The notes under the pieces are model-generated. The model ran no database searches. It saw nothing but the letters and a program-made list of their open reading frames with translations, and had not been told where the DNA came from. Below, piece after piece: positions 28,888 through 45,501 of a DNA stretch of 64,000 nt; the stretch's first letter is position 1, and each line of letters opens with the position of its first letter. Where the stretch lies: the NCBI GenBank assembly GCA_035380245.1, contig DAOSXA010000001.1:145925-209924 (forward strand), in the 5' to 3' direction. This DNA comes from Candidatus Zixiibacteriota bacterium. Its GTDB lineage: Bacteria > Zixibacteria > MSB-5A5 > GN15 > FEB-12. The translations under genes were made by a program, and so were the position numbers.

Positions 28888-30327
28888 TTAACTGCGGTCG
28901 GACCGGCTCAGCTTGGCGGTTACCACGTGAGTCCCGTCCTGGGAAAAGATGACACCGTCCATTTCCTCTTCGATTTCCTTGACCAGGCAACCGACGTGGA
29001 TTTTTACCCCCGGATAGACTTTACCGACGGCAATCACGCGGGCATCGCGAAGAGCCAGGAGTTTTTCTTCGGTCTCACGCTTCTTCTTCTCCAGAGCCTC
29101 AAGAGCAACCGGGACATGTTTCCCGAACTGCTCCAGTTTGGCCAGCCCCTCCTCCTGCTGCGGAGTGAGTTTCTTGTCCAGTTGGAGCTTATAAAGGTCG
29201 TATAGCTTCTCTTTGACACGGGCGGCGTCGGTTTTCAGGCGAGCTATTTCGTGTGTGGCTTCATGGTACTGGCGCAACAGTTTCTCATCGTAAGCAACCG
29301 TCAGAACGGTCTGGGTACCGGCATCGGAGCCGATATCGGTAGCGCGAATTTCTTTGCCGGCGTTGATTTCACCCCCGACAATTTTACCCTTACGCCCCTT
29401 GACCATCACCCGCTCATGAGCGGTAACATGACAGTTGACCAGTTCTCCCCCGGATATTACATGCTCTCCGGCCGTAATCGTCTGCCCCTGGGCGTACTTA
29501 ATCGTAACATCGCCGTCAGCGTGCATAACCCCATCACCGCCGCCGTAAAAACCGCCTCGAACAAGGATGTTCCCCTTACAGAAGACTTTGGCATCCTCGA
29601 CATTGCCGCTCACCTCGAGATCCCCCCCTACTTTGACCTCAAAGCCGGTATGTATGTGCCCGGTAATACGCAGCGAACCGACACAGTCCAGATTGCCGAC
29701 GTTAAAATCGACATCTTTGACCTGCATGACATCCTTGACCGAGACACGCCCCTGTTTGAAGATAATGGCCCCGTCGCAACGCGCTCTCATTTCGAGCCCA
29801 CCTCCCACGATTTCTACATTCTCGCCGGGACTGAACGGGATGTTACGACCGCGCGGCGCCGAAATAGGGCGACCATCGACACCGGTGCCGGAGATACCAT
29901 CGGCGGGAAGCGTGCGCTTGACCAGCAGATCTCCCTTGTGGACGTTCTGAATATAACCCATGTCGCGATAATCGATGCGACCGTCGGGACCTTCCTGGGG
30001 CTGAAAACGATTTTCAGTCTGGAAAAAATACTCGAATTCAGTGTGCTTGCCCTGAACCATCGGGCTGCCCTTGGCCACCTCGATGCTTTGGCCGTAAGCC
30101 TGGCCGATAGCGGCTTCGACAATGGCATCTTCGTTCAAGCCATAGGTAACCCCGGCCAAACTGATCGCCTGGCGAATTTCCTCTTCGGTGACAGGCGGTT
30201 CTCCGGTAGTAGGCTGACTGATCGCAATTGTAGCAATCAGGCGATCCTTGGTGATATTCACCCGGACCCTTTTACGTCTTACGACGCTGTCCTTGTTTTG
30301 TATGTCGGGAGTCTCGGCCGGCGTCAT
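28888..30327 (-). CDS. FapA-family (DUF342) flagellar assembly protein
   Basis: Beta-helical repeats (VGGDLEVSGNVEDAKVFCKGNILVRGGF...GKIVGGEINAGKEIRATDIGSDAGTQTVLTV) and a C-terminal coiled coil. The ATG at 30327 is preceded by AGGAG. Confidence 0.75.
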   Translation of the reverse strand: MTPAETPDIQNKDSVVRRKRVRVNITKDRLIATIAISQPTTGEPPVTEEEIRQAISLAGVTYGLNEDAIVEAAIGQAYGQSIEVAKGSPMVQGKHTEFEYFFQTENRFQPQEGPDGRIDYRDMGYIQNVHKGDLLVKRTLPADGISGTGVDGRPISAPRGRNIPFSPGENVEIVGGGLEMRARCDGAIIFKQGRVSVKDVMQVKDVDFNVGNLDCVGSLRITGHIHTGFEVKVGGDLEVSGNVEDAKVFCKGNILVRGGFYGGGDGVMHADGDVTIKYAQGQTITAGEHVISGGELVNCHVTAHERVMVKGRKGKIVGGEINAGKEIRATDIGSDAGTQTVLTVAYDEKLLRQYHEATHEIARLKTDAARVKEKLYDLYKLQLDKKLTPQQEEGLAKLEQFGKHVPVALEALEKKKRETEEKLLALRDARVIAVGKVYPGVKIHVGCLVKEIEEEMDGVIFSQDGTHVVTAKLSRSDRS

Positions 30328-30337
30328 CGGGGCTCCT

Positions 30338-30745
30338 CTAGGTCGGTTCGTTGGAAGTCTGGTTCGAAGCGGACAGGATGCGCCAGTAAGCCCGCTCCAC
30401 AACCAGCGATATCTCGTAGCTCTTGAACGGCTTGGTCACATATTCATCAGCACCCAGAAGAAGAGCATCTTTTACGGTGTACGTGTCACCATAAGCGGTC
30501 ATGATAATGACACCGATTTCAGGGTGGTCTTTCTTGATGATGCTGAGCAGCTCGAAACCGTCCATGCGCGGCATCTTCATATCCGAGATAACGATATCGA
30601 CCTTATTGTTTTTAAGATACTCCAGAGCGGCAACGCCGTCCTCCGCCGTGTTGATCCGGTACCCCTCACGCGAGAGGATCTTCATCAGCAGGTTACGCAT
30701 CATCAATTCATCATCGACGATCAATATCGATATCGAACTCTTCAT
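30338..30745 (-). CDS. Stand-alone response regulator receiver (CheY-like)
   Basis: 135 aa. Conserved residues are present: ILIVDDE, IVISDMKMP, IIMTAY, VTKPF. Confidence 0.85.
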   Translation of the reverse strand: MKSSISILIVDDELMMRNLLMKILSREGYRINTAEDGVAALEYLKNNKVDIVISDMKMPRMDGFELLSIIKKDHPEIGVIIMTAYGDTYTVKDALLLGADEYVTKPFKSYEISLVVERAYWRILSASNQTSNEPT

Positions 30746-30798: not shown

Positions 30799-31311
30799 TC
30801 AGCGTTGCAACGCTGAAGTTACTTCGGAGATGAACGTCTCCATCATTACCGGTTTGTACATCACCCTGCAGGCGCCCATAATCCCGGCTTCGGTTACCAG
30901 TTTCTCGGTAGCGTTACCGGTAATAATCATGACCGGCACCTCGGGTGAGATATCCTTGATAGCCGAGAGGACATCCAATCCGGACATTTCCGGCATAATG
31001 AGGTCCAGAGTGATCAGATCGTATTGACTGCCGCGTACTTTGGCGATGGCATCCTGGCCGTCGCCGGCGAGGTCTATATCGAAGGCCTGAGTAAGTTCGC
31101 AGAAATCTTTGAAAACGTCCTGAACCCATTTTTCGTCATCGACGATCAACACCCGGAACGGTTTGCCCCTTTGCCTGACCAGTTGGGTCAGCACCTCGGT
31201 TTCGGGAGAACTGTTCAAACCTGTCTCCTGTTCTGTAAGTCTATCGATCCGGTGGTTGGCACCGGTATATTGCATCTTTCGGCCCCTTTTGGTGCGTCGC
31301 AACCTCGGCAA
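30799..31311 (-). CDS. Response regulator receiver with short N-terminal extension
   Basis: Conserved residues are present: VLIVDDE, LITLDLIMPEMSG, MIITGN, YKPV. The start is uncertain (31311 or 31275). Confidence 0.8.
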   Translation of the reverse strand: MPRLRRTKRGRKMQYTGANHRIDRLTEQETGLNSSPETEVLTQLVRQRGKPFRVLIVDDEKWVQDVFKDFCELTQAFDIDLAGDGQDAIAKVRGSQYDLITLDLIMPEMSGLDVLSAIKDISPEVPVMIITGNATEKLVTEAGIMGACRVMYKPVMMETFISEVTSALQR

Positions 31312-31448: not shown

Positions 31449-31808
31449 TTACACGGTCAGGTCGGTAGATTTGGACAATGTATCCATGATCGAGGAACAC
31501 TGATCCAAAATCGAATTCAGTTTCAGTTCGATTCGATCTCTGGAGACAGCTCCGGAGGGGACATCGTAAGCCATTGTTTCCAAATGCCTTGCAGCACCTA
31601 CCAGATGTGTGATCTCCTGTACCGCCTTGATCGTGCCGTTGACCAGACGAACGAAGTCCGGTTCCATTTTGCCCAGTTCTTTGGAATTGGGTTTGGCCTT
31701 GGCCAGGTATATAGCCAGGTTCAGAGCCAGGACTTTTACTTCTTCGCTGAGACGGTCCACCTTGTTGACGATGGTAATCTCTCTGCGGCGATTTGTTTTT
31801 GACTCCAT
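31449..31808 (-). CDS. Small helical protein with remote similarity to the MCP signalling hairpin tip
   Basis: 119 aa. VKVLALNLAIYLAKAKPNSKELGKMEPDFVRLVNGTIKAVQEITHLV aligns gaplessly by eye to the MCP tip ([46 protein letters not shown]). The EQGRGF turn is not conserved. Confidence 0.3.
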   Translation of the reverse strand: MESKTNRRREITIVNKVDRLSEEVKVLALNLAIYLAKAKPNSKELGKMEPDFVRLVNGTIKAVQEITHLVGAARHLETMAYDVPSGAVSRDRIELKLNSILDQCSSIMDTLSKSTDLTV

Positions 31809-31810
31809 AT

Positions 31811-32167
31811 CTATTCCAATAGCTTGGCGATACTTTCTTTTAGCTCGGACAGATCGGACGACTTGACAAGGTAATCATCAGCGAGCCAGGTTTGAAAATC
31901 CGCCTTATAGATACTGTAAGCGGAGTTAATCACGACCCGAGTATCGGGTAATTTTTTGCGGAGTTCCTGAAGCGCTTCGATTCCGGTCATCTCCGGCATC
32001 TCAATATCGAGGACGATCAGATCGAACGACTCGGGCGGTCCGGCCTGAAGCAGCTTCACCGCAGAATCCATTGTCTCGACCCGGTAGCCGCATTCCTCCA
32101 GTTCGGTCTGATAGAGCAACCGGATATGCGGATCGTCGTCAACTACCAGGATTCTCTTCTGAGTCAT
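31811..32167 (-). CDS. Stand-alone response regulator receiver
   Basis: The ATG at 32167 is preceded by GGAGGA. Conserved residues are present: ILVVDDD, IVLDIEMPEMTG, INSAY, VKS. Confidence 0.85.
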   Translation of the reverse strand: MTQKRILVVDDDPHIRLLYQTELEECGYRVETMDSAVKLLQAGPPESFDLIVLDIEMPEMTGIEALQELRKKLPDTRVVINSAYSIYKADFQTWLADDYLVKSSDLSELKESIAKLLE

Positions 32168-33920
32168 TTTTCCTCCTGTGAATCGGAATCTTGACGTAGA
32201 GCGACGGCAACGACTGCAGGTTGGTTTGCAAACCATAAGTACCGCCATGATAACGGATCGTTTCACCGGCAACCATGACGGTCAGTCGTTGTGAGGCCCC
32301 CTTCTGTGAGAATATCTGTGTCAGCAGTTTGTGCATCTTGTCGCGGTTTTCCTCGGGAGTGTGCACATCGATAGTCATGCAAGCCTGGCCATCGACAATT
32401 TCCGTGTGAACCACGGCATCTCCGGGTGGAATCAGCTCCTCGGCAACCAGCTTGAGGAGTTGATAGACGGCATGAGCCAATTGATCGCTGTTGCCAAACA
32501 CTTCAATTCCCGGCTGTAGTTCCAGATTGATATCATCAAAAGCGCCACGGCACCGACCAGCGAGCGTACGATAGCTGCGCTCGATCAGGGCGGAGAAATC
32601 AACGACTTCGTTCCGGGCACGGCTGGCTTTGGAGAAATCCAACACATGAGCAAGAACGGTTTCGGCGCGACGAACCTCACCGGCAATGATATTCAGGTAT
32701 TCCCGATGATGATCGGCCAGGTCGGACTTGAGCAACAGGTTGGCGAAGCCACCGACGATGGTGAGCGGATTACGTAGTTCATGCGCTATCGCCGAAGTGA
32801 GTTCGCCGATCACCGACATTTTCTCGAACTGGATGATCTGATCCTGGGTCTCGGCCAGACGGCGATTGATACGCTCCATCTCCTGAGCACGTTGAAGCTG
32901 TATCTCATATAGTTCAGCGCGTTCCATCGCAACGGCAGCCTGATTCGATAATACCTGCAACAGGCGAACATCTTCATCGGTGATCGTACGCCCGGTGAAA
33001 AGGTTGTCGGCGACCAGTAAACCCTGGAGGTTTCCCTTGCTGACCATCGGGACCAGAGCCAACTCGCGCGAGCCAAGACGTAGTATAAGCGACTGAGTGA
33101 TTTCATCGACCGGGTCGTTCGGATCGAGAATAAACCATTGACCAAGATGACAGGCATTCTCAATATCCGACGGTTGGTTGAAATCGATGCTGTAATCTTT
33201 GATGAGCCCGGTAATTCCGCCTTCGACACCGACCTCGTCATGGATGCTGGCGGTCAGCAGATCGGACAAGGTCAGTCTATTCGAGTCCATATCGTGCCAG
33301 ATGCGTCCGGCCTCTTCGGCCGAGGTCGGCCCCACCGCCAGATGCCCCTGGAGCAATCGTTGCTTTTCATCGTACAGGAACAGGAAAGCCCGGTTGAAAC
33401 CGAGTCCCTGAGAAGCCGTAGCACCGGTCAGGATGGCCATGAGAATATGATCCAGGTCATGCGTGGATGAAAGCGCCGTGGCGACTTCGGCCAGGATTTG
33501 CAGTTCATCCTGAAGCTCGGCATAGGCCGCTTGATTTTCCAGTTTGCGAGTCTGGCGGACGAGAGCGACGATGCGGCGATCGTCGTTATATCCAAAAGCC
33601 TGACAGCAGAAATCCAACTCGCAGAATTGACCTCTCCGATTGGTACAATGCACTTCGGAAAGACAGAAGGGGCGATCGCCGTTCAGGACTTCATTGAAAT
33701 GTTCCTGGACATCTGAGTCGAATACATTGTCGATTCGTTCCAGAGAATAATCGATTCCCGGAGCTTGTTCATCGATACCCAGAAGTCGTGCGGCGGTTTC
33801 GTTGGTATGCACTATATAGCGATCGCGGTCGACCACGAACTGACCGATCTCGAACCGACTGAGCAGTTCGTCGCCGACGGTTGTCGGGATATTTGTGACT
33901 TGCTCTAACAGTCTGTCCAT
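32139..33920 (-). CDS. PAS-GAF-HisKA sensor protein with degenerate HATPase_c domain (putative pseudokinase)
   Basis: The H-box AHELRNPL is present. The C-terminal domain keeps the fold outline (TIRYHGGTYGL), but the N box is replaced by QLLKLVAEEL, G1 DxGxG by DVHTPEE, and G2 GxGLGL by ASQRLT. The start at 33920 lies 2 nt after the upstream stop. Confidence 0.7.
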   Translation of the reverse strand: MDRLLEQVTNIPTTVGDELLSRFEIGQFVVDRDRYIVHTNETAARLLGIDEQAPGIDYSLERIDNVFDSDVQEHFNEVLNGDRPFCLSEVHCTNRRGQFCELDFCCQAFGYNDDRRIVALVRQTRKLENQAAYAELQDELQILAEVATALSSTHDLDHILMAILTGATASQGLGFNRAFLFLYDEKQRLLQGHLAVGPTSAEEAGRIWHDMDSNRLTLSDLLTASIHDEVGVEGGITGLIKDYSIDFNQPSDIENACHLGQWFILDPNDPVDEITQSLILRLGSRELALVPMVSKGNLQGLLVADNLFTGRTITDEDVRLLQVLSNQAAVAMERAELYEIQLQRAQEMERINRRLAETQDQIIQFEKMSVIGELTSAIAHELRNPLTIVGGFANLLLKSDLADHHREYLNIIAGEVRRAETVLAHVLDFSKASRARNEVVDFSALIERSYRTLAGRCRGAFDDINLELQPGIEVFGNSDQLAHAVYQLLKLVAEELIPPGDAVVHTEIVDGQACMTIDVHTPEENRDKMHKLLTQIFSQKGASQRLTVMVAGETIRYHGGTYGLQTNLQSLPSLYVKIPIHRRKNDSEENPGS

Positions 33921-33922
33921 CG

Positions 33923-34768
33923 TTAATCCTTGTCTTCCGTCTCGACGCATCGATCCATCGCTTCGACCAGACTGCATATCCCGCTCAGGCGGCGATTTGC
34001 TTTGGAAACGCGAAGGGCGGCAGCTTCGATACGTCTCATACGCGACAGTTCCTTTTGACTGACCGCAGATTTCTCCATTACCAGGCATTGGATATTGCCC
34101 ACGATTACGGCCAGGGGGTTGTTAATTTCATGATTGACACTGGCGGCCAGACGCGCAGCTTCTCGCAGCCGCACCATGAGGTTGGCGCCCGATAAAACAT
34201 TCCGTTCACCAGTGGAATGCTGCTGCACTTCAGCCCGTGTGCGATTGAGTTCTTCGTCCAGTTGCAGCATCTGTAACGAGACGCCGAGGGGCCCGGCGAC
34301 CATCTCGGCCATCCGTAATTTCTCGTCGTCGTAGATATCCGCGGCAAAACAACCGAGATTGACCACTCCGACCAACTCCTCACCGTACAGCAACGGAATT
34401 GACAAAATGCTGCGATAATGACCGTCCGGTTCGGATAGAAAATCTTTCTTACGTAACGGAATCCGAGTGGGGCGACGGTTGGCTGCCACCCAGCCTTCGA
34501 GGCCGAGTCCGGATCCCAGTGACAGATAACTCAGGAATTGTACACGGCGTCCGACGCTGACCAATTCTTCAAGACGACGGCTCACACGGGACACCAGATG
34601 CACCGTTGCGCCATCGAACGGGATCAAATCCTTGAGTCTCTTCAACAGCGAGGCGCTTTTATCCGAAAGGGAGCCCTTAATATCGATCGGGCTGCACAAT
34701 CGAAGAAGCTTATTGAGACGATCCGCATCGTTTGATACGGTCGGGATGTCACTAGCGGTCGTGGTCAC
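33923..34768 (-). CDS. GAF plus HisKA/DHp-only protein (no ATPase domain)
   Basis: 281 aa. GAF-like region, then the H-box SVNHEINNPLAVIVGN. The ORF ends about 60 aa later, with no catalytic domain. Confidence 0.7.
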   Translation of the reverse strand: MTTTASDIPTVSNDADRLNKLLRLCSPIDIKGSLSDKSASLLKRLKDLIPFDGATVHLVSRVSRRLEELVSVGRRVQFLSYLSLGSGLGLEGWVAANRRPTRIPLRKKDFLSEPDGHYRSILSIPLLYGEELVGVVNLGCFAADIYDDEKLRMAEMVAGPLGVSLQMLQLDEELNRTRAEVQQHSTGERNVLSGANLMVRLREAARLAASVNHEINNPLAVIVGNIQCLVMEKSAVSQKELSRMRRIEAAALRVSKANRRLSGICSLVEAMDRCVETEDKD

Positions 34769-35397
34769 CCTTCCTCTCCTACAGTAGCCTGCTCCAGGTG
34801 CTCAGTTATCCGGCGACACAGTTTTTGTTCCAGCTCATGGAAGAAGATCTGTTTATCCGGTGCCGAGACATGAATTTCAGGATCATTGATGTTGTCATCC
34901 ATGGACATTTGCATGATCCGTTTGGCTTCTTTACTGATTTTGAAAGGCTCGGCGGTAATGACTCTCCCCCAGGACAAATCGATGAGGCGCAACTCACCTT
35001 CGATCACTCCGACAGTCGAATATTTGTGGAAAACCAGCGGGATATGCCAGCTTTTACGCCGTTCGAGCCGTTCGGAGTTAACATCGACCAGCAGCAAATA
35101 ACGCCCGCCCACTTCGCGTCCCCAGTTGACCAGCGAGTCGGTATCAAAGCGATTGGTCGGGAAAGGCGGAAGGTTATCCTGTCCGGGTTCTGCCAGCACC
35201 GGTCGCAGTTGTTCGTTGCGAGAGATATCCGCAGCCAGAATTTGTTCGATTTGCGGTTGTGACCAGGCGGACTCGGCCTGATCGACACGTATTATGATTT
35301 TACGTGCGAACGAATCAGCCAGGGCAACTCCGTTCAATACCATGATCAGTAATGCCAGAGCTATGCCGATCTTGACCAGTCGGGCAATCATAATCAC
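34765..35397 (-). CDS. Secreted or membrane-anchored hypothetical protein
   Basis: 210 aa with N-terminal hydrophobic segment IGIALALLIMVLNGVALA. No family recognised. Overlaps both neighbours by 4 nt. Confidence 0.4.
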   Translation of the reverse strand: MIMIARLVKIGIALALLIMVLNGVALADSFARKIIIRVDQAESAWSQPQIEQILAADISRNEQLRPVLAEPGQDNLPPFPTNRFDTDSLVNWGREVGGRYLLLVDVNSERLERRKSWHIPLVFHKYSTVGVIEGELRLIDLSWGRVITAEPFKISKEAKRIMQMSMDDNINDPEIHVSAPDKQIFFHELEQKLCRRITEHLEQATVGEEG

Positions 35398-35876
35398 ACC
35401 TGTTCCCGAGCTACGAACCGGTTGACGACCTCACGAACGGTCTTGTCGAAATGGTCAAACTGCTCGTCCAGAAGATCCATCTCGGAAGCCGACAGAATGT
35501 CATTCAAATTCTCGCGTGTAACGAACTGAACACCGGCAAGATTGCCGCTCTCATCCGTATCACAACGTTTGACCAGACCGAGAATACCGTTGAGGGTGCC
35601 GGTGTCACGAAGCAGGAAACGCATGGCGACGATGTCGCCTTCATTGACCGGCTGCTCCAGATCGAGCAGTACGCCGCCGGCGGAAATGTTCAGGATATTT
35701 CCCTGAATGCGATACTCATCTCCCTGCGGCCAGTAGTTTCCGAAAATGTCCTTAATGCGACTCAGTGAAGCGGGAGAGGTTATCTCGATTCTTACGAACT
35801 GACGTTTTTCGGTCGTATGCTCCTGAGCAGTCGCGACCTTGTTATCGTTGGCATCCTGCGTGGGTGATTTTCCCAT
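35394..35876 (-). CDS. PilZ-domain c-di-GMP receptor
   Basis: RxxxR (KRQFVRIE) and N/DxSxxG (NISAGGVLL) motifs are intact. Confidence 0.8.
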   Translation of the reverse strand: MGKSPTQDANDNKVATAQEHTTEKRQFVRIEITSPASLSRIKDIFGNYWPQGDEYRIQGNILNISAGGVLLDLEQPVNEGDIVAMRFLLRDTGTLNGILGLVKRCDTDESGNLAGVQFVTRENLNDILSASEMDLLDEQFDHFDKTVREVVNRFVAREQV

Positions 35877-35897
35877 GATTAACTCCTGTATCGATGG

Positions 35898-36659
35898 CTA
35901 CAATCTATTTTTCTTTTTCCAGGCAATCAGCGCCTGGTTCATCTCGGCCCGCTTAGGGGCGGTAAACTCAAACACGGCCGGGGGTAGAAGCTTGAGAATG
36001 TTCTCAGGTACTTCGACCCGCGCCTGCATGTCGGTGAGGAATTCCACACCGGTATAGAAATGCCCGGTTTCGGGCTGTATGCTGTGTCTGACACATCCGA
36101 TCATGAGAACCGGGAATTCGAATTGATCGAGGGCCAGATTAACGAATAACTTGGTGCCTTTTTCCAGGCGACTGGAGAGATCAAGTAAAAGACCGCCGCC
36201 GGAGAGATTGACGGATTCGGTTTCCATCCAGCGCATATTCTTGAGTTTCTTGGGATGAAAAGCCGGTCCGGCCATAACGGCCATGCGCACCGGGAACGAC
36301 ATGCGAACCCGAATGAAACGTCGGCGCATGAGCGGAAGAGCTTTATCGTCCAGAAAAATACGACAACGACCGCCGGAGGTGCGCTTAAGCAGGGCAGCAA
36401 CAGTGATTTCTTCTCCCTTGTATTGGAAACAGAGGGCAATTTGTTGATTGCTGACGAGCGTATCGATGCTTCTCTCGGCGCCGCCGCGATCCAGGGTGAG
36501 AGAATTTTCGCGAGCTTCAATCACTCGTGTGGCCAGCGGTCTTCCGGGGAATTGTTCCGAATGTACCGTAACGGAACGACCAACCATTGTCGAGAGATCT
36601 AACAAGGCAGTGTTGAACATGACATCATCATGCTGATCTCTGACGGCCTGGGTGACCAT
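35898..36659 (-). CDS. YcgR-like (PilZN + PilZ) protein
   Basis: 253 aa with RRRFIRVRM and NLSGGGLLL motifs and an N-terminal beta-barrel-like domain. Confidence 0.72.
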   Translation of the reverse strand: MVTQAVRDQHDDVMFNTALLDLSTMVGRSVTVHSEQFPGRPLATRVIEARENSLTLDRGGAERSIDTLVSNQQIALCFQYKGEEITVAALLKRTSGGRCRIFLDDKALPLMRRRFIRVRMSFPVRMAVMAGPAFHPKKLKNMRWMETESVNLSGGGLLLDLSSRLEKGTKLFVNLALDQFEFPVLMIGCVRHSIQPETGHFYTGVEFLTDMQARVEVPENILKLLPPAVFEFTAPKRAEMNQALIAWKKKNRL

Positions 36660-36661
36660 AT

Positions 36662-37420
36662 CTACAGCAATCCTTTCTGGCGCAGTTCTACTTGTTTATG
36701 GAAGATGAAACTGACCAATCGATTCTGAGCCACGCGGCCAAAATGCCTGACCGATGTCGGTAATTGCTCCAGTTCGTGACTCTCAAAGAATTTTCTGAGA
36801 TTGTCGGAGGTAATGAACTCAACGCCAACCATGCGCTGGCGTTCATCCAGAGCTTCACGGCGGCAGACAGCAACCACCGTTTCGGGAAGCTCGATACCCG
36901 GGAAAAAAGCAAATTTCAGCAACAGACGATCATCCACACGCGGTTCATCATTGATATGGATCAGGGCGCCGCCGCCGCTGAGATCAACGGTGGTAGAATC
37001 ATGCCAGGTGAGTGACTCCTCGAACGATTCGTAATCCATAACCGGTTTAATGAGTGCCCAGGACAGCTTCTCCGTGACCTCGATACGAGCGAACTGGCGG
37101 CGTTGTACGCGCTTAACGTTGCTCGGCGGAGTGAGGATATAAGCTTCACCGTTGGCGCGAATGAGTTTCTTGACAACCGACTGACATTGATAAACGGCAT
37201 CTTCACGAGTTATCAGAATCGAAACCGCGGCGTTGCTGCGGAGGAGGGTATTTCCTCGCACATACTCCGGCGCGTCAACCAGGATACCGGAGTTGACGAA
37301 ATCCTCGACGCGGGCGGTATAAATGCCCGCCTCACTACCCTCACCGATAACGATTTCGATCCGTTCCCAGATTTTAAGCGGTTTTGAAAGTCTGGGCAGC
37401 GGTAGTTCCGCAACAGCCAT
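36662..37420 (-). CDS. YcgR-like (PilZN + PilZ) protein, paralog
   Basis: 252 aa with RRQFARIEV and DLSGGGALI motifs. Confidence 0.72.
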   Translation of the reverse strand: MAVAELPLPRLSKPLKIWERIEIVIGEGSEAGIYTARVEDFVNSGILVDAPEYVRGNTLLRSNAAVSILITREDAVYQCQSVVKKLIRANGEAYILTPPSNVKRVQRRQFARIEVTEKLSWALIKPVMDYESFEESLTWHDSTTVDLSGGGALIHINDEPRVDDRLLLKFAFFPGIELPETVVAVCRREALDERQRMVGVEFITSDNLRKFFESHELEQLPTSVRHFGRVAQNRLVSFIFHKQVELRQKGLL

Positions 37421-37431
37421 GTTATCCTATC

Positions 37432-38616
37432 CTAAGCCGTTTTAAGTGCTTCCATGTTGGCCCGACCCTGCTCTATTGCCAGTTCGAGAATCTTACGAGC
37501 AAGCGCGGTTCGGGAGCGGTCGTTCCGATTGCGATAAATGAAATCCTGGCCGTACTTGATGGTGCTGTTGAAGTACTGACGAGCACCGTCGTAGTCCCCC
37601 ACGCGACGTGAAAGTTCCGCGATCAAGTACGAAGCCTGTAGCTGCTGATAACCGGGCGAGATATCGCGGCCATCGGAGAAAGCAGCCTGATAATAACTGA
37701 CGGCCTTTTCCAAAGCGGTACGTTCGTTGATAGTCACACCGTCCCAGGTCAGGCGGACTTCCTTGAGATAATCCGTAAAGGAATTGCGCCCGGCAAAGCC
37801 CACGCCGGTGACTCCATCCTGTTCGTCCAGCACCGTCCCCTTGTATTCATTGAGAGCCTGCCCCAGTTGATTCAACTGTGCTTCCATATCACCGAATGCC
37901 TGGCGGCAACCGTTGACACCGGACGCGATCGACTCCTGGAACGGTACCATCTGAGCTTTAATTTCCGAGGGTATCTCGGCATTATCGAACTGCGCCTGCC
38001 AGTGCCGCTCGAAAGCTCGCATCTCTTTGGCGAACGATTCCAGAGCGGAATCCATACCGGCGAAGCGGTTGTCAATGTCAGAGGTCAGATTACCGAGAGC
38101 ATTGGTAGCAGGATTACCGAGACGGTTCATCGCACGGAACACCCAGCCAATGCGAAGATAGAAACGACCGAGGTCGAGGTTCGACGGGTGATCGGCAAGC
38201 AGTTCATCGTAAACAGCCAAATGCAGTTTCAGGATGGCTGACTCGTTGGGAAAACGTTGGGTGTCGATCGCCTCACCCATCAGCTTCAGAACCGAACCAG
38301 CCTGTGCCAGTTGATCGAGGTGCTGAGGTTTGATGCTCTTCAAGCGGTACGTGATAAAATTGGTATCTTTCTTCCACTCCTTGAAGCTGTTGTTGAACTC
38401 GCGAGTGTAGAAGCAGTTACTGCACGTAGCGGTGAAATAGAGCAGTGGATTGTGGTTCTGATAGCGTTTGAAGCGCCATTCGATGTCGGTTGGGCAGAAA
38501 TCGGTATCTCTCCCCTGCTCGGTATAAGCCCCGACCCGAACCGTCTGTAGTTCGTTGATCGTTTTGCAGATCGGGCATTCGATCCGCGAGATGAAAAATG
38601 GGCTGTCTGTTGCCAT
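37432..38616 (-). CDS. DUF2225-like zinc-ribbon/TPR protein
   Basis: 394 aa. N-terminal CPICKT...NPLLYFTATCSNCFYT split zinc-ribbon pattern, with a TPR-like C-terminus (YYQAAF..., ARQYFNSTIKYG). Confidence 0.6.
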   Translation of the reverse strand: MATDSPFFISRIECPICKTINELQTVRVGAYTEQGRDTDFCPTDIEWRFKRYQNHNPLLYFTATCSNCFYTREFNNSFKEWKKDTNFITYRLKSIKPQHLDQLAQAGSVLKLMGEAIDTQRFPNESAILKLHLAVYDELLADHPSNLDLGRFYLRIGWVFRAMNRLGNPATNALGNLTSDIDNRFAGMDSALESFAKEMRAFERHWQAQFDNAEIPSEIKAQMVPFQESIASGVNGCRQAFGDMEAQLNQLGQALNEYKGTVLDEQDGVTGVGFAGRNSFTDYLKEVRLTWDGVTINERTALEKAVSYYQAAFSDGRDISPGYQQLQASYLIAELSRRVGDYDGARQYFNSTIKYGQDFIYRNRNDRSRTALARKILELAIEQGRANMEALKTA

Positions 38617-39419: not shown

Positions 39420-40292
39420 TCAACCGGTAAGGGCAAATCTCTCTTTCACCATGCCGCGCAGTTTGGCGACAGCCCTGGTGTGAATCTGCGATACGCGTGA
39501 TTCGGAGATGTGCATCACCTCACCGATCTCCTTCAGGGTTAATTCTTCGAAATAGTACAAAGCGATAACCAGCTTCTCCTGGTCGGTCAGGCGGTCAATG
39601 GCCACCACCAGGAAAGAGCGCAGTTCGCCTTTTTCGATATCGCTCAGGATATTCCCCACCGAGCCGTCGACAATCGTTTCGATTCGGGGGACCTGGCGGT
39701 TGTCATCCTCACGGTAGACAACTTCGTCGAGCGAGAGGACATTAGTTCCGTGGACATCATCCATAGCCAGGTGAAGCTCCTGCACCGAAATGTTCATGCG
39801 GTGCGCGATTTCTGCATTTTGCGGCTTACGACCGAGTTCGTTTTCGAGACCGGTGTAGGCGCGATCGATTTCGCGCGACTTGGCACGGGTCGAGCGCGGC
39901 ACCCAGTCCAGAGCACGCAGTTCATCAAGAATGGCTCCGCGGATACGCGGTACGGCGTACGTTTCGAATTTCACACCACGAGCGGAGTCATAATTTCCAA
40001 ACGCCTCGATCAACCCGATGACGCCGGTGTTAACCAGGTCCGATAATTCCACCGACCGGGGAAAACCCATAGCCATGCGCGAGGCAACATTGCGAACCAG
40101 CGGCAGGTATTTTTCGAGTAGTTGCTGGCGCATTTCCTCGGAACGGCATTTCTGATAGCGGGACCAATCCCGTTCAGTGACTTCCCACTTGCGAGATTTC
40201 CTGGCCCTGGCGGTCACAGCCGTTTGAGCCATCTGGGTCATATCGGCATCAGCCGGGTGTTTTCTGGTCGTCGATTTTTGCATCGTAGCCAT
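39420..40292 (-). CDS. fliA: Flagellar sigma factor FliA/WhiG (sigma-28)
   Basis: 290 aa with regions 2-4 (LVNTGVIGLIEAFGNYD; TLKEIGEVMHISESRVSQIHTRAVAKLR). Located after flhG. Confidence 0.9.
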   Translation of the reverse strand: MATMQKSTTRKHPADADMTQMAQTAVTARARKSRKWEVTERDWSRYQKCRSEEMRQQLLEKYLPLVRNVASRMAMGFPRSVELSDLVNTGVIGLIEAFGNYDSARGVKFETYAVPRIRGAILDELRALDWVPRSTRAKSREIDRAYTGLENELGRKPQNAEIAHRMNISVQELHLAMDDVHGTNVLSLDEVVYREDDNRQVPRIETIVDGSVGNILSDIEKGELRSFLVVAIDRLTDQEKLVIALYYFEELTLKEIGEVMHISESRVSQIHTRAVAKLRGMVKERFALTG

Positions 40293-40299
40293 TTGATTG

Positions 40300-41160
40300 C
40301 TATTCCCTTGTATCGGCCTTTATCGTTAAGCCATTGATTCTTTTTCTGTTTGAAAGCCGCGTCCCGGTCGGAGTTATCCCGAAATCGGTCAGCAGCCGGG
40401 CGGCGAGTTCATCGAACGCATATAGCGCATCGCTGGGCTGATCCAGCCCTGCCAGGGTGGTCTGACCGGCTACGCTCCGGCGTACTGATTCATCCTCCGG
40501 CAAAAAGCCCACGGTTTGCGGGGAAACGCCGAGGAACCGCTCGGAAAGCGCTGAGAACTTGCGGATGATATATTCAGCCTCTTCGACCCCTTCGGTCCGA
40601 TTGACCAACAGGCGGCAGTCAAGGCGGGGATTGCTGCGTTTGAGAAACTTGAACAGACCGTAACAATCGCTGATAGAGGAAAGCTCCGGTACCAGCAGCA
40701 ACAGGTTCAAATCTGAAGTATGGGCGGCCATAATGGCGGTTTGAGTAACACCGGAAGAATGGTCGACCAGGATGAAATCGTAATCAACAGCCTGTTTGAG
40801 CAGGTTGCGTATCAGGCGACGGGAAGCGGTTTCATCTTCAGGATCCAGATTTTCACTGTTGCGGAATCCTCCCAATAAGTCCCAACCCGGCTTGATTCGG
40901 TATACCGCTTCTTTAAGGCTCAGGCTTCGATCGGCGAACTCGCCCAAACCGAAATCGCAGGTTGCCTTGGCGAGAACATGCAGATTGCCGCTGTAAAGGT
41001 CACCGTCGACCATCAGGACGCGGAGCCCCCGAGCAGCCAGCCGGTCAGCCAGATTGAACGTTACAACAGTCTTGCCTACGCCGTTCTTACCGGACAGAAT
41101 GGAAATCACCACGGCAGCACGGCCATGTTCCGGGGCGCGGGTGAAAGTCTGCTTAAACAA
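40300..41160 (-). CDS. flhG: MinD/ParA-family ATPase FlhG (FleN/YlxH)
   Basis: 286 aa. Walker A is ILSGKNGVGKT (KNG instead of the usual KGG). Also VDGDL and FILVD. Located between flhF and fliA. Confidence 0.8.
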   Translation of the reverse strand: MFKQTFTRAPEHGRAAVVISILSGKNGVGKTVVTFNLADRLAARGLRVLMVDGDLYSGNLHVLAKATCDFGLGEFADRSLSLKEAVYRIKPGWDLLGGFRNSENLDPEDETASRRLIRNLLKQAVDYDFILVDHSSGVTQTAIMAAHTSDLNLLLLVPELSSISDCYGLFKFLKRSNPRLDCRLLVNRTEGVEEAEYIIRKFSALSERFLGVSPQTVGFLPEDESVRRSVAGQTTLAGLDQPSDALYAFDELAARLLTDFGITPTGTRLSNRKRINGLTIKADTRE

Positions 41161-42355
41161 GGAACGCCTCCACCTGCAACAGGTTACGAATCATCCGATC
41201 CGGATCGGGCGTCTTGATCTCGCCGATACCGGAAGGAGATTCGGTAATGAAACCGATCGGACATCCGGAGGCTTCGGCCGCAGCAATAGCGGTACCGCAG
41301 AGATCGGTCAGATCAAGCATCGTAACAACGACATTGGTAGGCTCAAAAACGGCGGCATTACGAGCCAGATGCGGGATATCACTCGACCGGGTAAGGGCGG
41401 AATAAACCGCCAGCACGTGCGTCGGATCGAGCGAGCGAGCCTGTTCCACCAAACGTTCCAGTCGATCAGGATCGCCCGGCAACGCAGGAGAATCGATCAG
41501 GGTGATGCTGTCCGGATTGAGATAGAGGTCTTTATCCTGAGACTGGACATCGACTACATCGGCGCCGAGGATACGACCGTATCCGGCGATCTCGTCGAAG
41601 GCAGCCATTTTAACCGTATCGAGGGTAATCAAACTGACCGGCAGCTTCTGCAGCATGATCAATTGAGCGGCCAGTTTGGCTACGACGCTGGACTTGCCGG
41701 CGCCGGCAGGCCCGACGAACAGAACGCGATCACCGGGCGCAAACGGCATTGACGGAGCCATCAGGCAGGCGGTCTCTTCTACCAGTATGGAGCGCGTCAC
41801 CGCCGTCAGGTCATCGCCGATTTTAGCTGAGCGATTGGCCTTTTCAATCAAGCGCTGAATAAATGGTTTCGGGAAATCGGCGTCGCGCAGGGTTTGTTCA
41901 ATGACATAAAAACCATCACGACGCTCGCGTTCGATACGCTGTTCGACCGATGTTTTATCAATCCCGGCAATCCGATTGTTTGTCTTGTTCTCGCGGGGCG
42001 TTTCAGCATATTCATCTTCCGGTACAACGTCGGTATCTTCTTCATCCATCACGGCCGTGGCCGTCGCGGCGGACCCAGCTTGCTCAGCCAGTTCCAAAGC
42101 TGCCGCCAGGGCATCAGGACGGTTATCATCGAATACGCTGTCGATCACCGTCCCCACCGGTGAGGTCAAAAGCAGAGTTGACTGCTCGACTGTGGGATTT
42201 TCCAGGCAGGCGGTTATTTCAACCGACAGACGACCGCCGCTGCCGGTAATTTGCCGTGTCTTCAGCACGATCGCCTCACCGCCCATTTGTTCGCGCACCC
42301 GCTTGAGAGCGGCGCTCGAAGAACGTTCTACGAAAGACTTAATGATCATCGTCAA
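41153..42355 (-). CDS. flhF: Flagellar biosynthesis SRP-type GTPase FlhF (G2-G4 motifs atypical)
   Basis: 400 aa with the N-terminal FlhF signature IKSFVERSSSAALKRVREQMGGEAIVL and P-loop GPAGAGKS. G2 is DTVK, G3 is DSPA and G4 is TMLD. Confidence 0.8.
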   Translation of the reverse strand: MTMIIKSFVERSSSAALKRVREQMGGEAIVLKTRQITGSGGRLSVEITACLENPTVEQSTLLLTSPVGTVIDSVFDDNRPDALAAALELAEQAGSAATATAVMDEEDTDVVPEDEYAETPRENKTNNRIAGIDKTSVEQRIERERRDGFYVIEQTLRDADFPKPFIQRLIEKANRSAKIGDDLTAVTRSILVEETACLMAPSMPFAPGDRVLFVGPAGAGKSSVVAKLAAQLIMLQKLPVSLITLDTVKMAAFDEIAGYGRILGADVVDVQSQDKDLYLNPDSITLIDSPALPGDPDRLERLVEQARSLDPTHVLAVYSALTRSSDIPHLARNAAVFEPTNVVVTMLDLTDLCGTAIAAAEASGCPIGFITESPSGIGEIKTPDPDRMIRNLLQVEAFLV

Positions 42356-44429: not shown

Positions 44430-44430
44430 G

Positions 44431-45501
44431 TTACCTGACTACCTTCTTTTTGAGGCGATAGACATAAGCCAGCAACTCAGCCACAGCCTTGAACAGCTTC
44501 TCAGGCACGACCTCGCCGATCTCGCACAACTTGAACAGGGAACGAGCCAGCGGTTTATCCTCGATAACCGGGATGTTATGCTGACGAGCTATTTCCTTGA
44601 TGCGCTGAGCCACGAGGCGCGCGCCTTTGGCGACAACCATCGGGGCGGACATTTCTTCGGGATCGTATTTTAGAGCTACCGCCAGATGGGTAGGGTTGGT
44701 TACCACGACATCGGCTTGCGGCACCGTCCGCATCATGCGCTGGCGAGCCATCTGGCGTTGAATCTGACGTACACGAGACTTGAGCTGCGGGGAACCCTCA
44801 GTCTCTTTATGCTCTTCCTTCAGTTCCTGTTTGGACATCCGGATTGATTTCTCGAACTCGTATTTCTGGTAAGCGTAGTCGAGTACGGCTATCACGACCA
44901 TGATGCCGCCGACCTTGAGACCAAGCATTATGGCCAGCTTGCCCATGGCCGAAGCGAGTTGAGCCACGGTCATATCGGGAAGCAGGAAAAATGATTCAAA
45001 CTCACCATCGATCGCCTTGTAGGCCACGATGCCGACAATCGTCAGCTTGATCAGATCGCGGCCGAGTTGGACGACGGAACGAGCCGAGAATAAACGCTTG
45101 AAGCCCTTGACCAGGTCTAATTTTTCGAATTTCGGTTCGAGCGACTTGGGCGTGATGCGGAAACCGACCTGCACGACGTTCGCTACCAGCGCCACTATCA
45201 CTACCACTGTGAGAACCGGCGCCATTATGGTAAAGAAGCGAATCACGTATTGGCTGAAAACCGTGGCAAAAGTCGGGTCAGAGGCGGCGATAGTCGCCGC
45301 ATTAGCCATGGTATACCTCATGAGCATCTGAGCCTGAGCAGCCATATACGGACCGAGGGCATACAGAGTCAGGAAACCGAAAATCAACATCGCGGCGGCG
45401 TTAACCTCCTGCGATTTGAGAACACGACCTTCCTCGCGGACTTTCTGGCGCCGCCTGTTAGTCGCTTTTTCAGTTCTTTCCTGGAAACTCTCGTCGGCCA
45501 T
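44431..45501 (-). CDS. flhB: Flagellar export switch protein FlhB
   Basis: 356 aa. N-terminal EKTEKATNRRRQKVREEG and the NPTH autocleavage site (VVVTNPTHLAVAL). Confidence 0.95.
   Translation of the reverse strand: MADESFQERTEKATNRRRQKVREEGRVLKSQEVNAAAMLIFGFLTLYALGPYMAAQAQMLMRYTMANAATIAASDPTFATVFSQYVIRFFTIMAPVLTVVVIVALVANVVQVGFRITPKSLEPKFEKLDLVKGFKRLFSARSVVQLGRDLIKLTIVGIVAYKAIDGEFESFFLLPDMTVAQLASAMGKLAIMLGLKVGGIMVVIAVLDYAYQKYEFEKSIRMSKQELKEEHKETEGSPQLKSRVRQIQRQMARQRMMRTVPQADVVVTNPTHLAVALKYDPEEMSAPMVVAKGARLVAQRIKEIARQHNIPVIEDKPLARSLFKLCEIGEVVPEKLFKAVAELLAYVYRLKKKVVR

What the first reader, a model, noticed from the sequence alone, without database searches (positions are those of the whole stretch)
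32139..34768. Adjacent pair of histidine-kinase-like sensors that both appear unable to bind ATP
Gene 33923-34768 encodes GAF plus an H-box (SVNHEINNPLAVIVGN) and stops about 60 aa later, with no catalytic domain.

The next gene starts 2 nt after that stop. It encodes PAS-GAF-HisKA (AHELRNPL) and a C-terminal domain that keeps the HATPase_c outline (TIRYHGGTYGLQ...YVKIPI). The ATP-binding boxes are degenerate:
- The N box is QLLKLVAEEL, with no Asn.
- The G1 DxGxG position reads DVHTPEE.
- The G2 GxGLGL position reads ASQRLT.

Both proteins retain the phosphorylatable His, and three canonical receivers are encoded next door. They could act as phosphatases, as phosphotransfer hubs, or as heterodimer partners of a kinase encoded elsewhere.
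Basis: partly seen in the sequence, partly recalled or inferred. Interest (0 to 1): 0.6.

Follow-up and report, generated by a model that had tools for sequence, protein, structure and literature searches.

The report
ATP-blind histidine-kinase pair in flagellar operon
Two neighbouring sensor proteins at the end of a Zixibacteria flagellar operon keep the phosphorylatable part of a histidine kinase but have lost the ATP-binding site or the whole catalytic domain, a loss conserved across the lineage, so they most likely remove or shuttle phosphate on nearby receiver proteins.

Summary
Gene A (33923-34768, minus strand) encodes GAF plus a DHp hairpin and nothing more. Gene B (32139-33920) encodes PAS-GAF-HisKA plus a C-terminal domain with the kinase catalytic fold. 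That domain gets no HATPase_c match, and its N-box Asn, G1 and G2 residues are all replaced.

This is not decay:
- B is a single-copy ortholog in 100 of 151 Zixibacteria genomes, always in the same flagellar operon tail (flhA-flhF-flhG-fliA ... PilZ genes-[A]-B-RR1-small helical protein-RR2-RR3-FapA).
- Its dead catalytic domain is under purifying selection (dN/dS 0.05-0.19).
- None of 120 relatives has the Mg-binding Asn.
- Orthologs in two families still have an intact ATP site, and the site was lost at least twice.

B with the overlapping receiver RR1 is a ThkA/TrrA-type pair; RR1 is 46% identical to TrrA.

The phosphatase residue (Asn at His+4) is nearly invariant in both proteins. The His itself is replaced in some lineages. 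A and B each occur without the other.

My best reading is sensor-gated, ATP-independent phosphatases or phosphoryl shuttles acting on the adjacent single-domain receivers. This is a new family of a known kind (ChpT, Spo0B, PhyP, DivL). Biochemistry is needed to separate phosphatase from phosphotransferase.

The parts
33923..34768 (-). Gene A: 281-aa GAF + DHp (HisKA) hairpin protein with no catalytic domain. H-box is VNHEINNPL, with His213 at 34130-34132.
   Evidence: Pfam finds GAF and a partial HisKA only. The AF2 model shows GAF plus a helical hairpin. The family alignment A2 has His, Asn at His+4 and NPL invariant in 22 sequences.
32139..33920 (-). Gene B: 593-aa PAS-GAF-DHp protein with a degenerate CA-like domain; ortholog of ThkA-type sensor kinases.
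32601..32825 (-). DHp / HisKA domain of B (residues 366-440). H-box is AHELRNPL, with His380 at 32781-32783 and Asn384 at His+4.
   Evidence: HisKA match at E 3e-14. Mean pairwise identity is 66%. Among 120 relatives, His is present in 115 and Asn384 in 119.
32175..32600 (-). CA-like domain of B (residues 441-582). It keeps the Bergerat-type alpha/beta fold. The N-box Asn is Leu491, and G1 and G2 are lost.
   Evidence: No HATPase_c match. KinB alignment. AF2 secondary structure. In 120 relatives, 0 have Asn at the Mg position and 0 have Gly at the two G2 glycine positions checked. dN/dS is 0.05-0.19 in orthologs.
32901..33440 (-). GAF domain of B (residues 161-340), the second most conserved part (LTGATASQGLGFNRAFLFL motif).
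   Evidence: Pfam GAF. 53 of 180 columns are at least 90% conserved.
31811..32167 (-). RR1: 118-aa single-domain receiver, TrrA-like. Its start overlaps the last 29 nt of B, behind an AGGAGG.
   Evidence: Response_reg E 9e-23. Best PDB match is 3a0r_B TrrA, E 1.1e-30, 46% identity with no gaps. Gene junction read.
31449..31808 (-). 119-aa helical protein with a faint resemblance to the chemoreceptor signalling tip. It is conserved after RR1 in all loci examined.
   Evidence: MCPsignal E 0.014 here and E 8.4e-5 in the L010 ortholog. Synteny.
30799..31311 (-). RR2: single-domain receiver (true start uncertain).
   Evidence: Response_reg E 6e-24.
30338..30745 (-). RR3: 135-aa single-domain receiver. 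Its best solved relatives are Spo0F proteins.
   Evidence: Response_reg E 1.4e-32. PDB top hits are Spo0F 6ifh and 1fsp.
28888..30402 (-). FapA (flagellar assembly protein A, DUF342), last gene of the module.
   Evidence: FapA E 2.7e-62 and FapA_N E 8e-39.
34765..38616 (-). Upstream conserved genes: a 210-aa protein with an N-terminal hydrophobic stretch that looks like a signal peptide, three PilZ proteins (at least one with a YcgR-like N-domain) and DUF2225.
   Evidence: Same order in L001-L003.
39420..45501 (-). Flagellar genes heading the same strand run: fliA (sigma-28), flhG, flhF, flhA, flhB.
   Evidence: Pfam matches.

Best explanation
**What the proteins are.** A and B are ATP-blind transmitter proteins. 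They belong to a conserved signalling module at the end of the Zixibacteria fliA operon.
- B descends from a ThkA-type PAS-GAF sensor kinase. Its cognate partner is the overlapping TrrA-like receiver RR1.
- In B the catalytic domain kept its fold but lost every Mg-ATP ligand.
- A is a GAF sensor fused to a bare DHp hairpin.

**Shown here.**
- Loss of the ATP motifs.
- Conservation of that loss across the lineage, and purifying selection on the remnant domain.
- Orthology to kinases with an intact site.
- Pairing of B with RR1.

**Inferred.**
- Neither protein can autophosphorylate. Both act on receivers that have already been phosphorylated by a kinase encoded elsewhere or by acetyl phosphate.
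- The most likely activity is a GAF/PAS-gated phosphatase. The receiver docks on DHp helix 1, and the near-invariant Asn at His+4 positions the hydrolytic water.
- The retained His may also take the phosphoryl group back from the receiver. That would make the proteins a phosphate sink or a shuttle among the three receivers.
- The output is presumably flagellar behaviour or assembly, given the PilZ and FapA neighbours.
For: **ATP site absent.**
- No HATPase_c match by Pfam, by genome scan or by a CA HMM built from this genome's own kinases.
- The alignment to KinB shows Asn->Leu, GxG->H,P and GxGLG->QRLT.
- None of 120 relatives has the Mg-binding Asn or a glycine at the two G2 positions checked.

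**Functional retention.**
- B is present as one copy in 100 of 151 genomes, in constant synteny.
- dN/dS of the CA-like domain is 0.05-0.19, against 0.16-0.22 for intact CA domains in the pairs tested.
- The AF2 model keeps the fold.

**Ancestry.**
- Orthologs in families f12 and f16 score 104-121 bits for CA and carry N..N, DxGxG and GLGL motifs in the same gene order.
- The tree needs 2 changes of state.
- RR1 is 46% identical to TrrA without gaps. ThkA is B's second-best solved relative.

**Phosphatase reading.**
- Asn at His+4 is present in 119 of 120 B sequences and in all 22 A sequences.
- His is replaced by Q, D or E in 5 of 120 B sequences. It is replaced by K, Q, D or R in A-like proteins of families f14, f9 and f16, most of which keep NPLAIIAGNAQ.
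- The residue at His+1 varies in A (E, Q, A, D).
- In CrdS, HK853 and two other kinases, the acid at His+1 is needed only for kinase activity and the T/N at His+4 only for phosphatase activity. CrdS H371A keeps phosphatase activity (PMC3510030).
- HK853 without its CA domain was reported to keep phosphatase activity in vitro at pH 8.0 (PMC7005713).
Against: - No biochemistry exists for any member of the family.
- His is still kept in 115 of 120 B sequences and in all 22 close A sequences, long after the ATP site was lost. Glu at His+1 is kept in 118 of 120 B sequences. Both facts fit a His-dependent phosphotransferase better than a purely hydrolytic phosphatase.
- The natural kinase-like proteins with a dead CA domain and a retained His that I read about (ChpT and PhyP; Spo0B from my own knowledge) turned out to be phosphotransferases (PMC3433190; bioRxiv 10.1101/2020.04.29.069633).
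- Asn at His+4 is also present in the kinase-competent orthologs, so it may simply be inherited.
- No phosphodonor kinase has been identified.
- The genome's chemotaxis cluster has its own CheZ, so these proteins are not needed as the CheY phosphatase.
Confidence: 0.5

Rival explanations
1. **Histidine phosphotransferase hub (Spo0B / ChpT / PhyP-like).** A kinase elsewhere phosphorylates one single-domain receiver, for example the Spo0F-like RR3. That receiver passes the phosphoryl group to His380 of B or His213 of A, which hands it on to RR1 or RR2, or in the reverse direction.
For: - The architecture matches ChpT: a DHp hairpin with His plus a Bergerat-fold domain that cannot bind ATP (PMC3433190).
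- His and Glu at His+1 are almost always kept in B.
- Three single-domain receivers lie next door. RR3's best solved relatives are Spo0F proteins.
- FapA is present in nearly all families of the main clade with a dead ATP site, and in the loci read there RR2-RR3-FapA follow the module. FapA is absent from all 15 genomes checked in families f11, f12, f16 and f17. The two intact-B loci read in full (L007, L010) lack RR2/RR3.
- PhyK and LovK accept phosphate from the single-domain receiver MrrA. PhyP, which has a degenerate CA domain, is a phosphotransferase (PMC5964349).
Against: - Five of 120 B sequences, and the A-like proteins of several families, lack the His but are otherwise conserved.
- Spo0B and ChpT carry no sensor domains, whereas B keeps a strongly conserved GAF domain.
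- No sequence match to ChpT or Spo0B appears in the PDB search at E <= 1.
- The co-occurrence of FapA with loss of the ATP site may reflect a single shared event in the phylogeny.
Confidence: 0.27
2. **DivL-like pseudokinase.** A and B do no phosphoryl chemistry. They bind a receiver in a manner that depends on its phosphorylation state, and they pass that information, or a GAF/PAS signal, to another protein such as FapA, the PilZ proteins or a kinase.
For: - His-less variants exist in both families.
- The CA-like domain is conserved even though it is useless for ATP binding.
- DivL provides a precedent (PMC4211667).
Against: His, Glu at His+1 and Asn at His+4 are all kept in the window's proteins and in most relatives. 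A pure binder would not need them.
Confidence: 0.1
3. **Partner of a real kinase.** A or B forms a heterodimer with an ATP-competent kinase, or is phosphorylated in trans by one. The precedent is the ChrS pseudokinase pairing with HrrS.
For: - ChrS lacking its CA domain forms heterodimers with HrrS (PMC9491836).
- In family f16, an A-like protein sits next to a kinase-competent B.
Against: - The window's genome has only one B-like gene at E <= 1e-40, and no HATPase_c gene lies in the 64-kb window.
- A and B each occur alone in many genomes.
Confidence: 0.08
4. **Cryptic kinase.** B still binds a nucleotide or another phosphodonor in a non-canonical way and autophosphorylates.
For: The fold and the F-box Phe are kept.
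Against: - Every canonical ligand is gone in all 120 relatives.
- The G1 region is hypervariable.
- An N-box Asn mutation alone kills CrdS kinase activity (PMC3510030).
Confidence: 0.03

Closest known systems
ThkA / TrrA of Thermotoga maritima (PDB 3a0r)
   Same: - RR1 is 46% identical to TrrA over 114 residues with no gaps. It shares the AYSxYxxDxxxWxADxYxVKS signature seen in the alignment.
- B's DHp matches ThkA at E 7e-14.
- Both are a PAS-linked HisKA sensor with an adjacent single-domain receiver.
   Different: - By my own knowledge ThkA has a working CA domain. B's has no ATP ligands.
- B also carries a GAF domain.
- The genomic context of ThkA could not be checked here.
ChpT (Caulobacter) and Spo0B (Bacillus), dimeric kinase-derived histidine phosphotransferases
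   Same: - A DHp hairpin with His, plus a C-terminal Bergerat-fold domain that cannot bind ATP.
[quoted passage not shown] In B's AF2 model only about 4 residues separate the two helices that flank the lid position.
   Different: - There is no detectable sequence relationship.
- ChpT and Spo0B have no sensor domains.
- Some members of the B and A families lack the His.
PhyP (Sphingomonas), and PhyK / LovK with the single-domain receiver MrrA (Caulobacter)
   Same: These are kinase-like proteins, PhyP with a degenerate CA domain, that exchange phosphoryl groups with single-domain receivers instead of autophosphorylating (PMC5964349).
   Different: - They belong to the HWE / HisKA2 types and act in the general stress response.
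- Here the proteins are HisKA type and sit in a flagellar operon.
Transmitter phosphatase activity of bifunctional HisKA kinases (CrdS, HK853, EnvZ); DrBphP as a phosphatase-only example
   Same: The H-E-x-x-N motif is shared. The Asn is the residue required only for phosphatase activity (PMC3510030).
   Different: Those proteins keep a working ATP site. Here it has been lost for good.
DivL (Caulobacter) and PsmA (Streptomyces), histidine pseudokinases
   Same: Both are kinase-derived proteins repurposed without kinase activity (PMC4211667, PMC12963549).
   Different: They have lost the His. The window's A and B keep the His and have lost the ATP site or the whole CA domain.

Membership tests
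Canonical HisKA + HATPase_c sensor histidine kinase | HisKA DHp domain with a phospho-acceptor His | tested here: met
   B matches HisKA at E 3e-14 with His380. A matches HisKA at E 1.4e-6 with His213.
Canonical HisKA + HATPase_c sensor histidine kinase | HATPase_c domain recognised by profile | tested here: not met
   No hit at E <= 0.1. None in the window by genome scan. No score against the own-genome CA HMM, against 104-121 bits for intact orthologs. A has no such domain at all.
Canonical HisKA + HATPase_c sensor histidine kinase | N-box Asn that binds Mg, G1 DxGxG and G2 GxGxG | tested here: not met
   Leu491, DVHTP and QRLT in the KinB alignment. 0 of 120 relatives have Asn at the Mg position or Gly at the two G2 positions checked.
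Canonical HisKA + HATPase_c sensor histidine kinase | Autophosphorylation with ATP | not testable with these tools
   Requires purified protein.
ThkA/TrrA-type two-component pair | Receiver closely related to TrrA and encoded directly after the sensor | tested here: met
   RR1 against 3a0r_B gives E 1.1e-30 and 46% identity; the next-best receiver scores 46 bits against 109. RR1 overlaps B by 29 nt.
ThkA/TrrA-type two-component pair | Sensor with PAS-DHp-CA and a functional CA domain | tested here: not met
   The DHp matches ThkA at E 7e-14, but the CA domain is degenerate. Orthologs in families f12 and f16 meet this feature.
Dimeric kinase-derived histidine phosphotransferases (Spo0B, ChpT, PhyP) | [quoted passage not shown] | tested here: met
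   True for B. A has only the hairpin.
Dimeric kinase-derived histidine phosphotransferases (Spo0B, ChpT, PhyP) | Sequence homology to ChpT or Spo0B | tested here: not met
   Neither appears among 36 PDB matches at E <= 1.
Dimeric kinase-derived histidine phosphotransferases (Spo0B, ChpT, PhyP) | Accepts a phosphoryl group from one receiver and passes it to another | not testable with these tools
   Requires phosphotransfer assays.
HisKA transmitter phosphatase | Thr or Asn at His+4 on DHp helix 1 | tested here: met
   Asn384 in B is present in 119 of 120 relatives. Asn217 in A is present in all 22. The role of this residue comes from PMC3510030.
HisKA transmitter phosphatase | Accelerates dephosphorylation of the cognate receiver | not testable with these tools
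   Requires an RR~P half-life assay.
DivL-type histidine pseudokinase | Phospho-acceptor His replaced | tested here: not met
   His is present in both window proteins. It is replaced in only 5 of 120 B relatives and in A-like proteins of some other families.

The most novel reading that the evidence does not exclude
In most Zixibacteria, an ancestral flagellar ThkA/TrrA-type two-component system was rewired into a kinase-free, multi-receiver phosphoryl network. Rewiring happened when RR2, RR3 and FapA were added to the operon.

In this reading, the dead-CA sensor B and the CA-less sensor A act as two differently gated (PAS/GAF versus GAF) valves. They drain or redistribute phosphoryl groups among three CheY-like receivers. 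The receivers are fed from outside, for example from CheA recruited through the chemoreceptor-tip-like 119-aa protein. Intracellular signals would thereby set flagellar rotation or assembly.

The lineage would also offer a natural series for study: orthologs with a live ATP site, orthologs with a dead ATP site, and orthologs without the His.
Probability: 0.2. Interest if true: 0.65.

Novelty: new member of a known kind. Interest (0 to 1): 0.45.

Why it matters
Histidine-kinase relatives that cannot bind ATP are known from a handful of cases: Spo0B, ChpT, PhyP, DivL and laboratory-evolved ChrS. How a kinase becomes such a protein is rarely visible.

This family shows several stages side by side:
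- Orthologs in one conserved flagellar operon exist with a live ATP site, with a dead ATP site (lost at least twice), and without the His.
- The dead domain has been kept under selection in about two thirds of the sampled genomes of an uncultured lineage.

That makes the family a tractable natural series for two questions. What does a CA fold do once it no longer binds ATP? How is motility signalling wired in Zixibacteria? Automated annotation calls these genes 'sensor histidine kinase', which is probably wrong as a statement of function.

Tried and rejected
phmmer, the Pfam profile, the own-genome CA HMM and a 120-sequence alignment all agree.
2. **Decaying gene or pseudogene: rejected.** The frame is intact, the protein is conserved from 76% down to about 27% identity, and dN/dS is 0.05-0.19.
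3. **Retained G1 Asp as a sign of residual adenine binding: rejected.** Only 6 of 120 relatives have Asp at that position.
4. **Obligate A-B heterodimer: rejected.** Each protein occurs without the other.
5. **Replacement for a missing chemotaxis system or a missing CheY phosphatase: weakened.** The genome has two CheA, two CheW and a CheZ next to CheA on another contig, and no CheC.
6. **Scan of genome contigs with the TrrA sequence, intended to see the Thermotoga locus: failed.** It returned only generic receivers, mostly from Actinomycetota. The genomic context of ThkA/TrrA therefore remains unchecked.
7. **NCBIfam: uninformative.** Only sub-threshold hits to AtoS, ZraS, KinD and similar families.
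8. **Literature search for Zixibacteria flagellar signalling: found nothing specific**.
Full report
**1. Observation.**

All genes discussed lie on the minus strand.
- Gene A (33923-34768) ends in TAA. Two bases later the ATG of gene B (32139-33920) follows, preceded by AAGGA.
- RR1 starts at 32167 behind an AGGAGG, inside the last 29 nt of B.

Domain content:
- A has GAF and a partial HisKA.
- B has a weak PAS, GAF and HisKA (E 3e-14). There is no HATPase_c hit even at E <= 0.1.
- A six-frame HATPase_c scan of the 3.75-Mb genome finds 52 domains, none in the window.
- A CA-domain HMM that I built from this genome's own kinases gives B no score at all.

phmmer aligns B 361-581 to the KinB DHp-CA structure 3d36.
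- Gln487 and Leu491 stand at the two N-box Asn positions.
- DVHTP stands for DTGVG.
- QRLT stands for GTGLG.

AlphaFold2 models support the same picture:
- B (pLDDT 77.5) has a long DHp hairpin and an alpha/beta domain with the CA topology. Only four residues lie between the two helices that normally flank the ATP lid.
- A (pLDDT 78.4) has GAF plus a hairpin and nothing more.
- Foldseek matches B's core to ZraS, CpxA, RetS and HK853.

**2. The state is conserved, not decay.**

B has more than 350 relatives. The best 120 (38-76% identity, about 590 aa) are named only as Zixibacteria or unclassified proteins, and none carries PF02518.

In 120 cluster representatives:
- The Mg-binding Asn position is never Asn.
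- The two G2 glycine positions checked are never Gly.
- The G1 Asp is present in 6.
- His380 is present in 115.
- Glu381 is present in 118.
- Asn384 is present in 119.

Mean pairwise identity by domain is 66% for DHp, 51% for GAF, 40% for the CA-like domain and 26% for PAS.

For orthologous pairs where synonymous sites are not saturated, dN/dS of the CA-like domain is 0.05-0.19. Intact CA domains give 0.16-0.22.

A whole-genome search finds one copy of B in 100 of 151 genomes of the lineage.

**3. Context.**

In the window and in every long locus examined the order is:

flhB-flhA-flhF-flhG-fliA, two small genes, DUF2225, two or three PilZ genes, a gene of about 200 aa, [A], B, RR1, a helical protein of about 120 aa with faint MCP-tip similarity, RR2, RR3, FapA.

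No HATPase_c gene lies in the 64-kb window. CheA, CheW and CheZ are on another contig.

**4. Ancestry.**

- RR1's best solved relative by far is TrrA of Thermotoga maritima. It scores 109 bits against 46 for the next receiver, with 46% identity over 114 residues and no gap.
- ThkA, the partner of TrrA, is B's second-best solved relative.
- Among class-level orthologs fetched from 50 loci, CA-HMM scores are bimodal: 22 bits or less, or more than 100 bits.
- Full-length orthologs with an intact CA domain (ALLNIFRNAIWAMP, KDTGFGI, FFTTK, GLGLT) occur in families f12 and f16. Their neighbours are the same. L010 has an A-like gene, B, a receiver and the MCP-tip-like gene. L007 has DUF2225, PilZ, B and a receiver.
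- In a maximum-likelihood tree, 59 degenerate sequences form one side of a branch with 99% SH-aLRT support.
- Family f11 is degenerate separately: its G1 is deleted while the N-box asparagines are kept. The ATP site was therefore lost at least twice. The tree included the CA columns, which may bias this count somewhat.

**5. Modularity.**

- Locus L003 has A but lacks both B and RR1. At least 14 genomes of family f1 have A and FapA but no B.
- Families f5 and f8 have B and RR1 but no A.
- B and RR1 therefore behave as a unit, and A is independent of B.
- FapA is absent from all 15 genomes checked in families f11, f12, f16 and f17. It is present in nearly all families of the main degenerate clade. 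Because of shared ancestry this may be a single event.

**6. Residue patterns that bear on mechanism.**

- In A (22 sequences) His213, Asn217 and NPL are invariant, while the residue at His+1 varies (E, Q, A, D).
- A-like proteins upstream of B in families f14, f9 and f16 have K, Q, D or R in place of the His. Most keep xNPLAIIAGNAQ.
- Five B representatives (P0073, P0084, P0087, P0096, P0101) have Q, D or E in place of His380 but keep ELRNPL. P0073 and P0101 are sisters in the tree.

Experiments on CrdS, HK853 and two other HisKA kinases set the framework (PMC3510030):
- The acid at His+1 is needed only for kinase activity.
- The Thr/Asn at His+4 is needed only for phosphatase activity.
- CrdS H371A still dephosphorylates its receiver (half-life 2.6 min, against 0.7 for wild type and 53.5 without enzyme).
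- An N-box Asn mutant is kinase-dead.

HK853 without its CA domain was reported to keep phosphatase activity in vitro at pH 8.0 (PMC7005713).

**7. Interpretation.**

Shown:
- Neither protein has the means to bind Mg-ATP.
- This state is ancient, selected and derived from a real kinase.

Inferred:
- Both proteins act on receivers phosphorylated by something else.
- I favour sensor-gated phosphatase activity. The Asn at His+4 is the most constant catalytic residue, and the His is dispensable in several lineages of both families.
- The strongest rival is a ChpT / Spo0B / PhyP-like phosphotransferase.

Points in favour of that rival:
- His and Glu are retained in most B sequences.
- Three single-domain receivers lie alongside.
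- RR3's best solved relatives are Spo0F.
- Other dead-CA kinase relatives turned out to be phosphotransferases (PMC3433190, PMC5964349).

The PhyP history is a warning: it was first called a phosphatase and later shown to shuttle phosphate. Sequence alone cannot separate the two activities, and they may coexist as back-transfer followed by hydrolysis. DivL-like scaffolding, trans-phosphorylation by a partner kinase and cryptic kinase activity are less likely, for the reasons given under the rival explanations.

**8. Novelty.**

- Kinase-derived proteins without ATP binding are a known kind.
- No curated family covers this one. Source annotations call it 'sensor histidine kinase', 'GAF domain-containing protein' or 'hypothetical protein'.
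- I found no literature on it.
- It is a new member of that kind. Its added value is that live, dead and His-less orthologs exist in a single conserved flagellar operon.

**9. Earlier scan notes.**

- A note on another genome (e1-3343701) described the same coupled pair with Asn at the His position of the A-like protein.
- Another note (e1-2983506) described a flagellar-operon kinase-like protein with Glu in place of His.
- I did not see those sequences. I did independently find His-less A-like and B sequences.

Noticed in passing
window 31449-31808 (-); L010:7291-7689 (-): The helical protein of about 120 aa after RR1 is conserved in every locus examined, including those with a kinase-competent B. 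It gives a faint MCPsignal match (E 0.014 here, 8.4e-5 in L010). B, RR1 and this protein look like the ancestral core trio.
   Followed up: partly
genomes G134, G061, G067, G100, G116, G148, G142, G095, G070, G077, G049, G088, G123, G092, G089: FapA (PF03961) is absent from all 15 genomes checked in families f11, f12, f16 and f17, which include the families with an intact-CA B. It is present in 105 of 151 genomes overall, including nearly all families of the main dead-CA clade. In the loci read, RR2-RR3-FapA come together.
   Followed up: partly
L007:3298-5106 (-), L023, L029: Family f12 orthologs with an intact CA domain have Gln at His+1 (HQLRNP, HQIRNP). In CrdS the equivalent E372Q mutation abolishes kinase activity, so these 'intact' orthologs may also be poor kinases.
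   Followed up: no
L043, L049-L053 (e.g. G084:C1:2906512-2907912): A second GAF-HisKA-HATPase paralog of about 545 aa, with an intact ATP site and Thr at His+4, occurs in genomes of families f11, f12 and f14. It is not found in the window's genome at E <= 1e-40. Its context was not examined.
   Followed up: no
genome contig C2:320339-322624: A chemotaxis cluster elsewhere in the genome holds CheA (584 aa) with a CheZ homolog next to it. A second CheA-like gene (1004 aa) and two CheW genes also exist. No CheC domain was found in the genome.
   Followed up: partly
window 34765-35397 (-): The 210-aa protein just upstream of A has an N-terminal hydrophobic stretch that looks like a signal peptide and no family match. 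A gene of about 200 aa holds the same position in all loci examined (e.g. L001 202 aa, L002 203 aa, L003 199 aa).
   Followed up: no
control genomes: Thermotoga maritima is the only one of 14 control genomes with a FapA match, and it is also the source of ThkA/TrrA. Whether the three genes are neighbours there could not be checked.
   Followed up: no
P0073, P0084, P0087, P0096, P0101: The B representatives without His mostly have N-terminal extensions: four are 635-657 aa and the fifth is 591-644 aa, against about 590 aa for typical members. P0073 and P0101 are sisters in the tree.
   Followed up: partly
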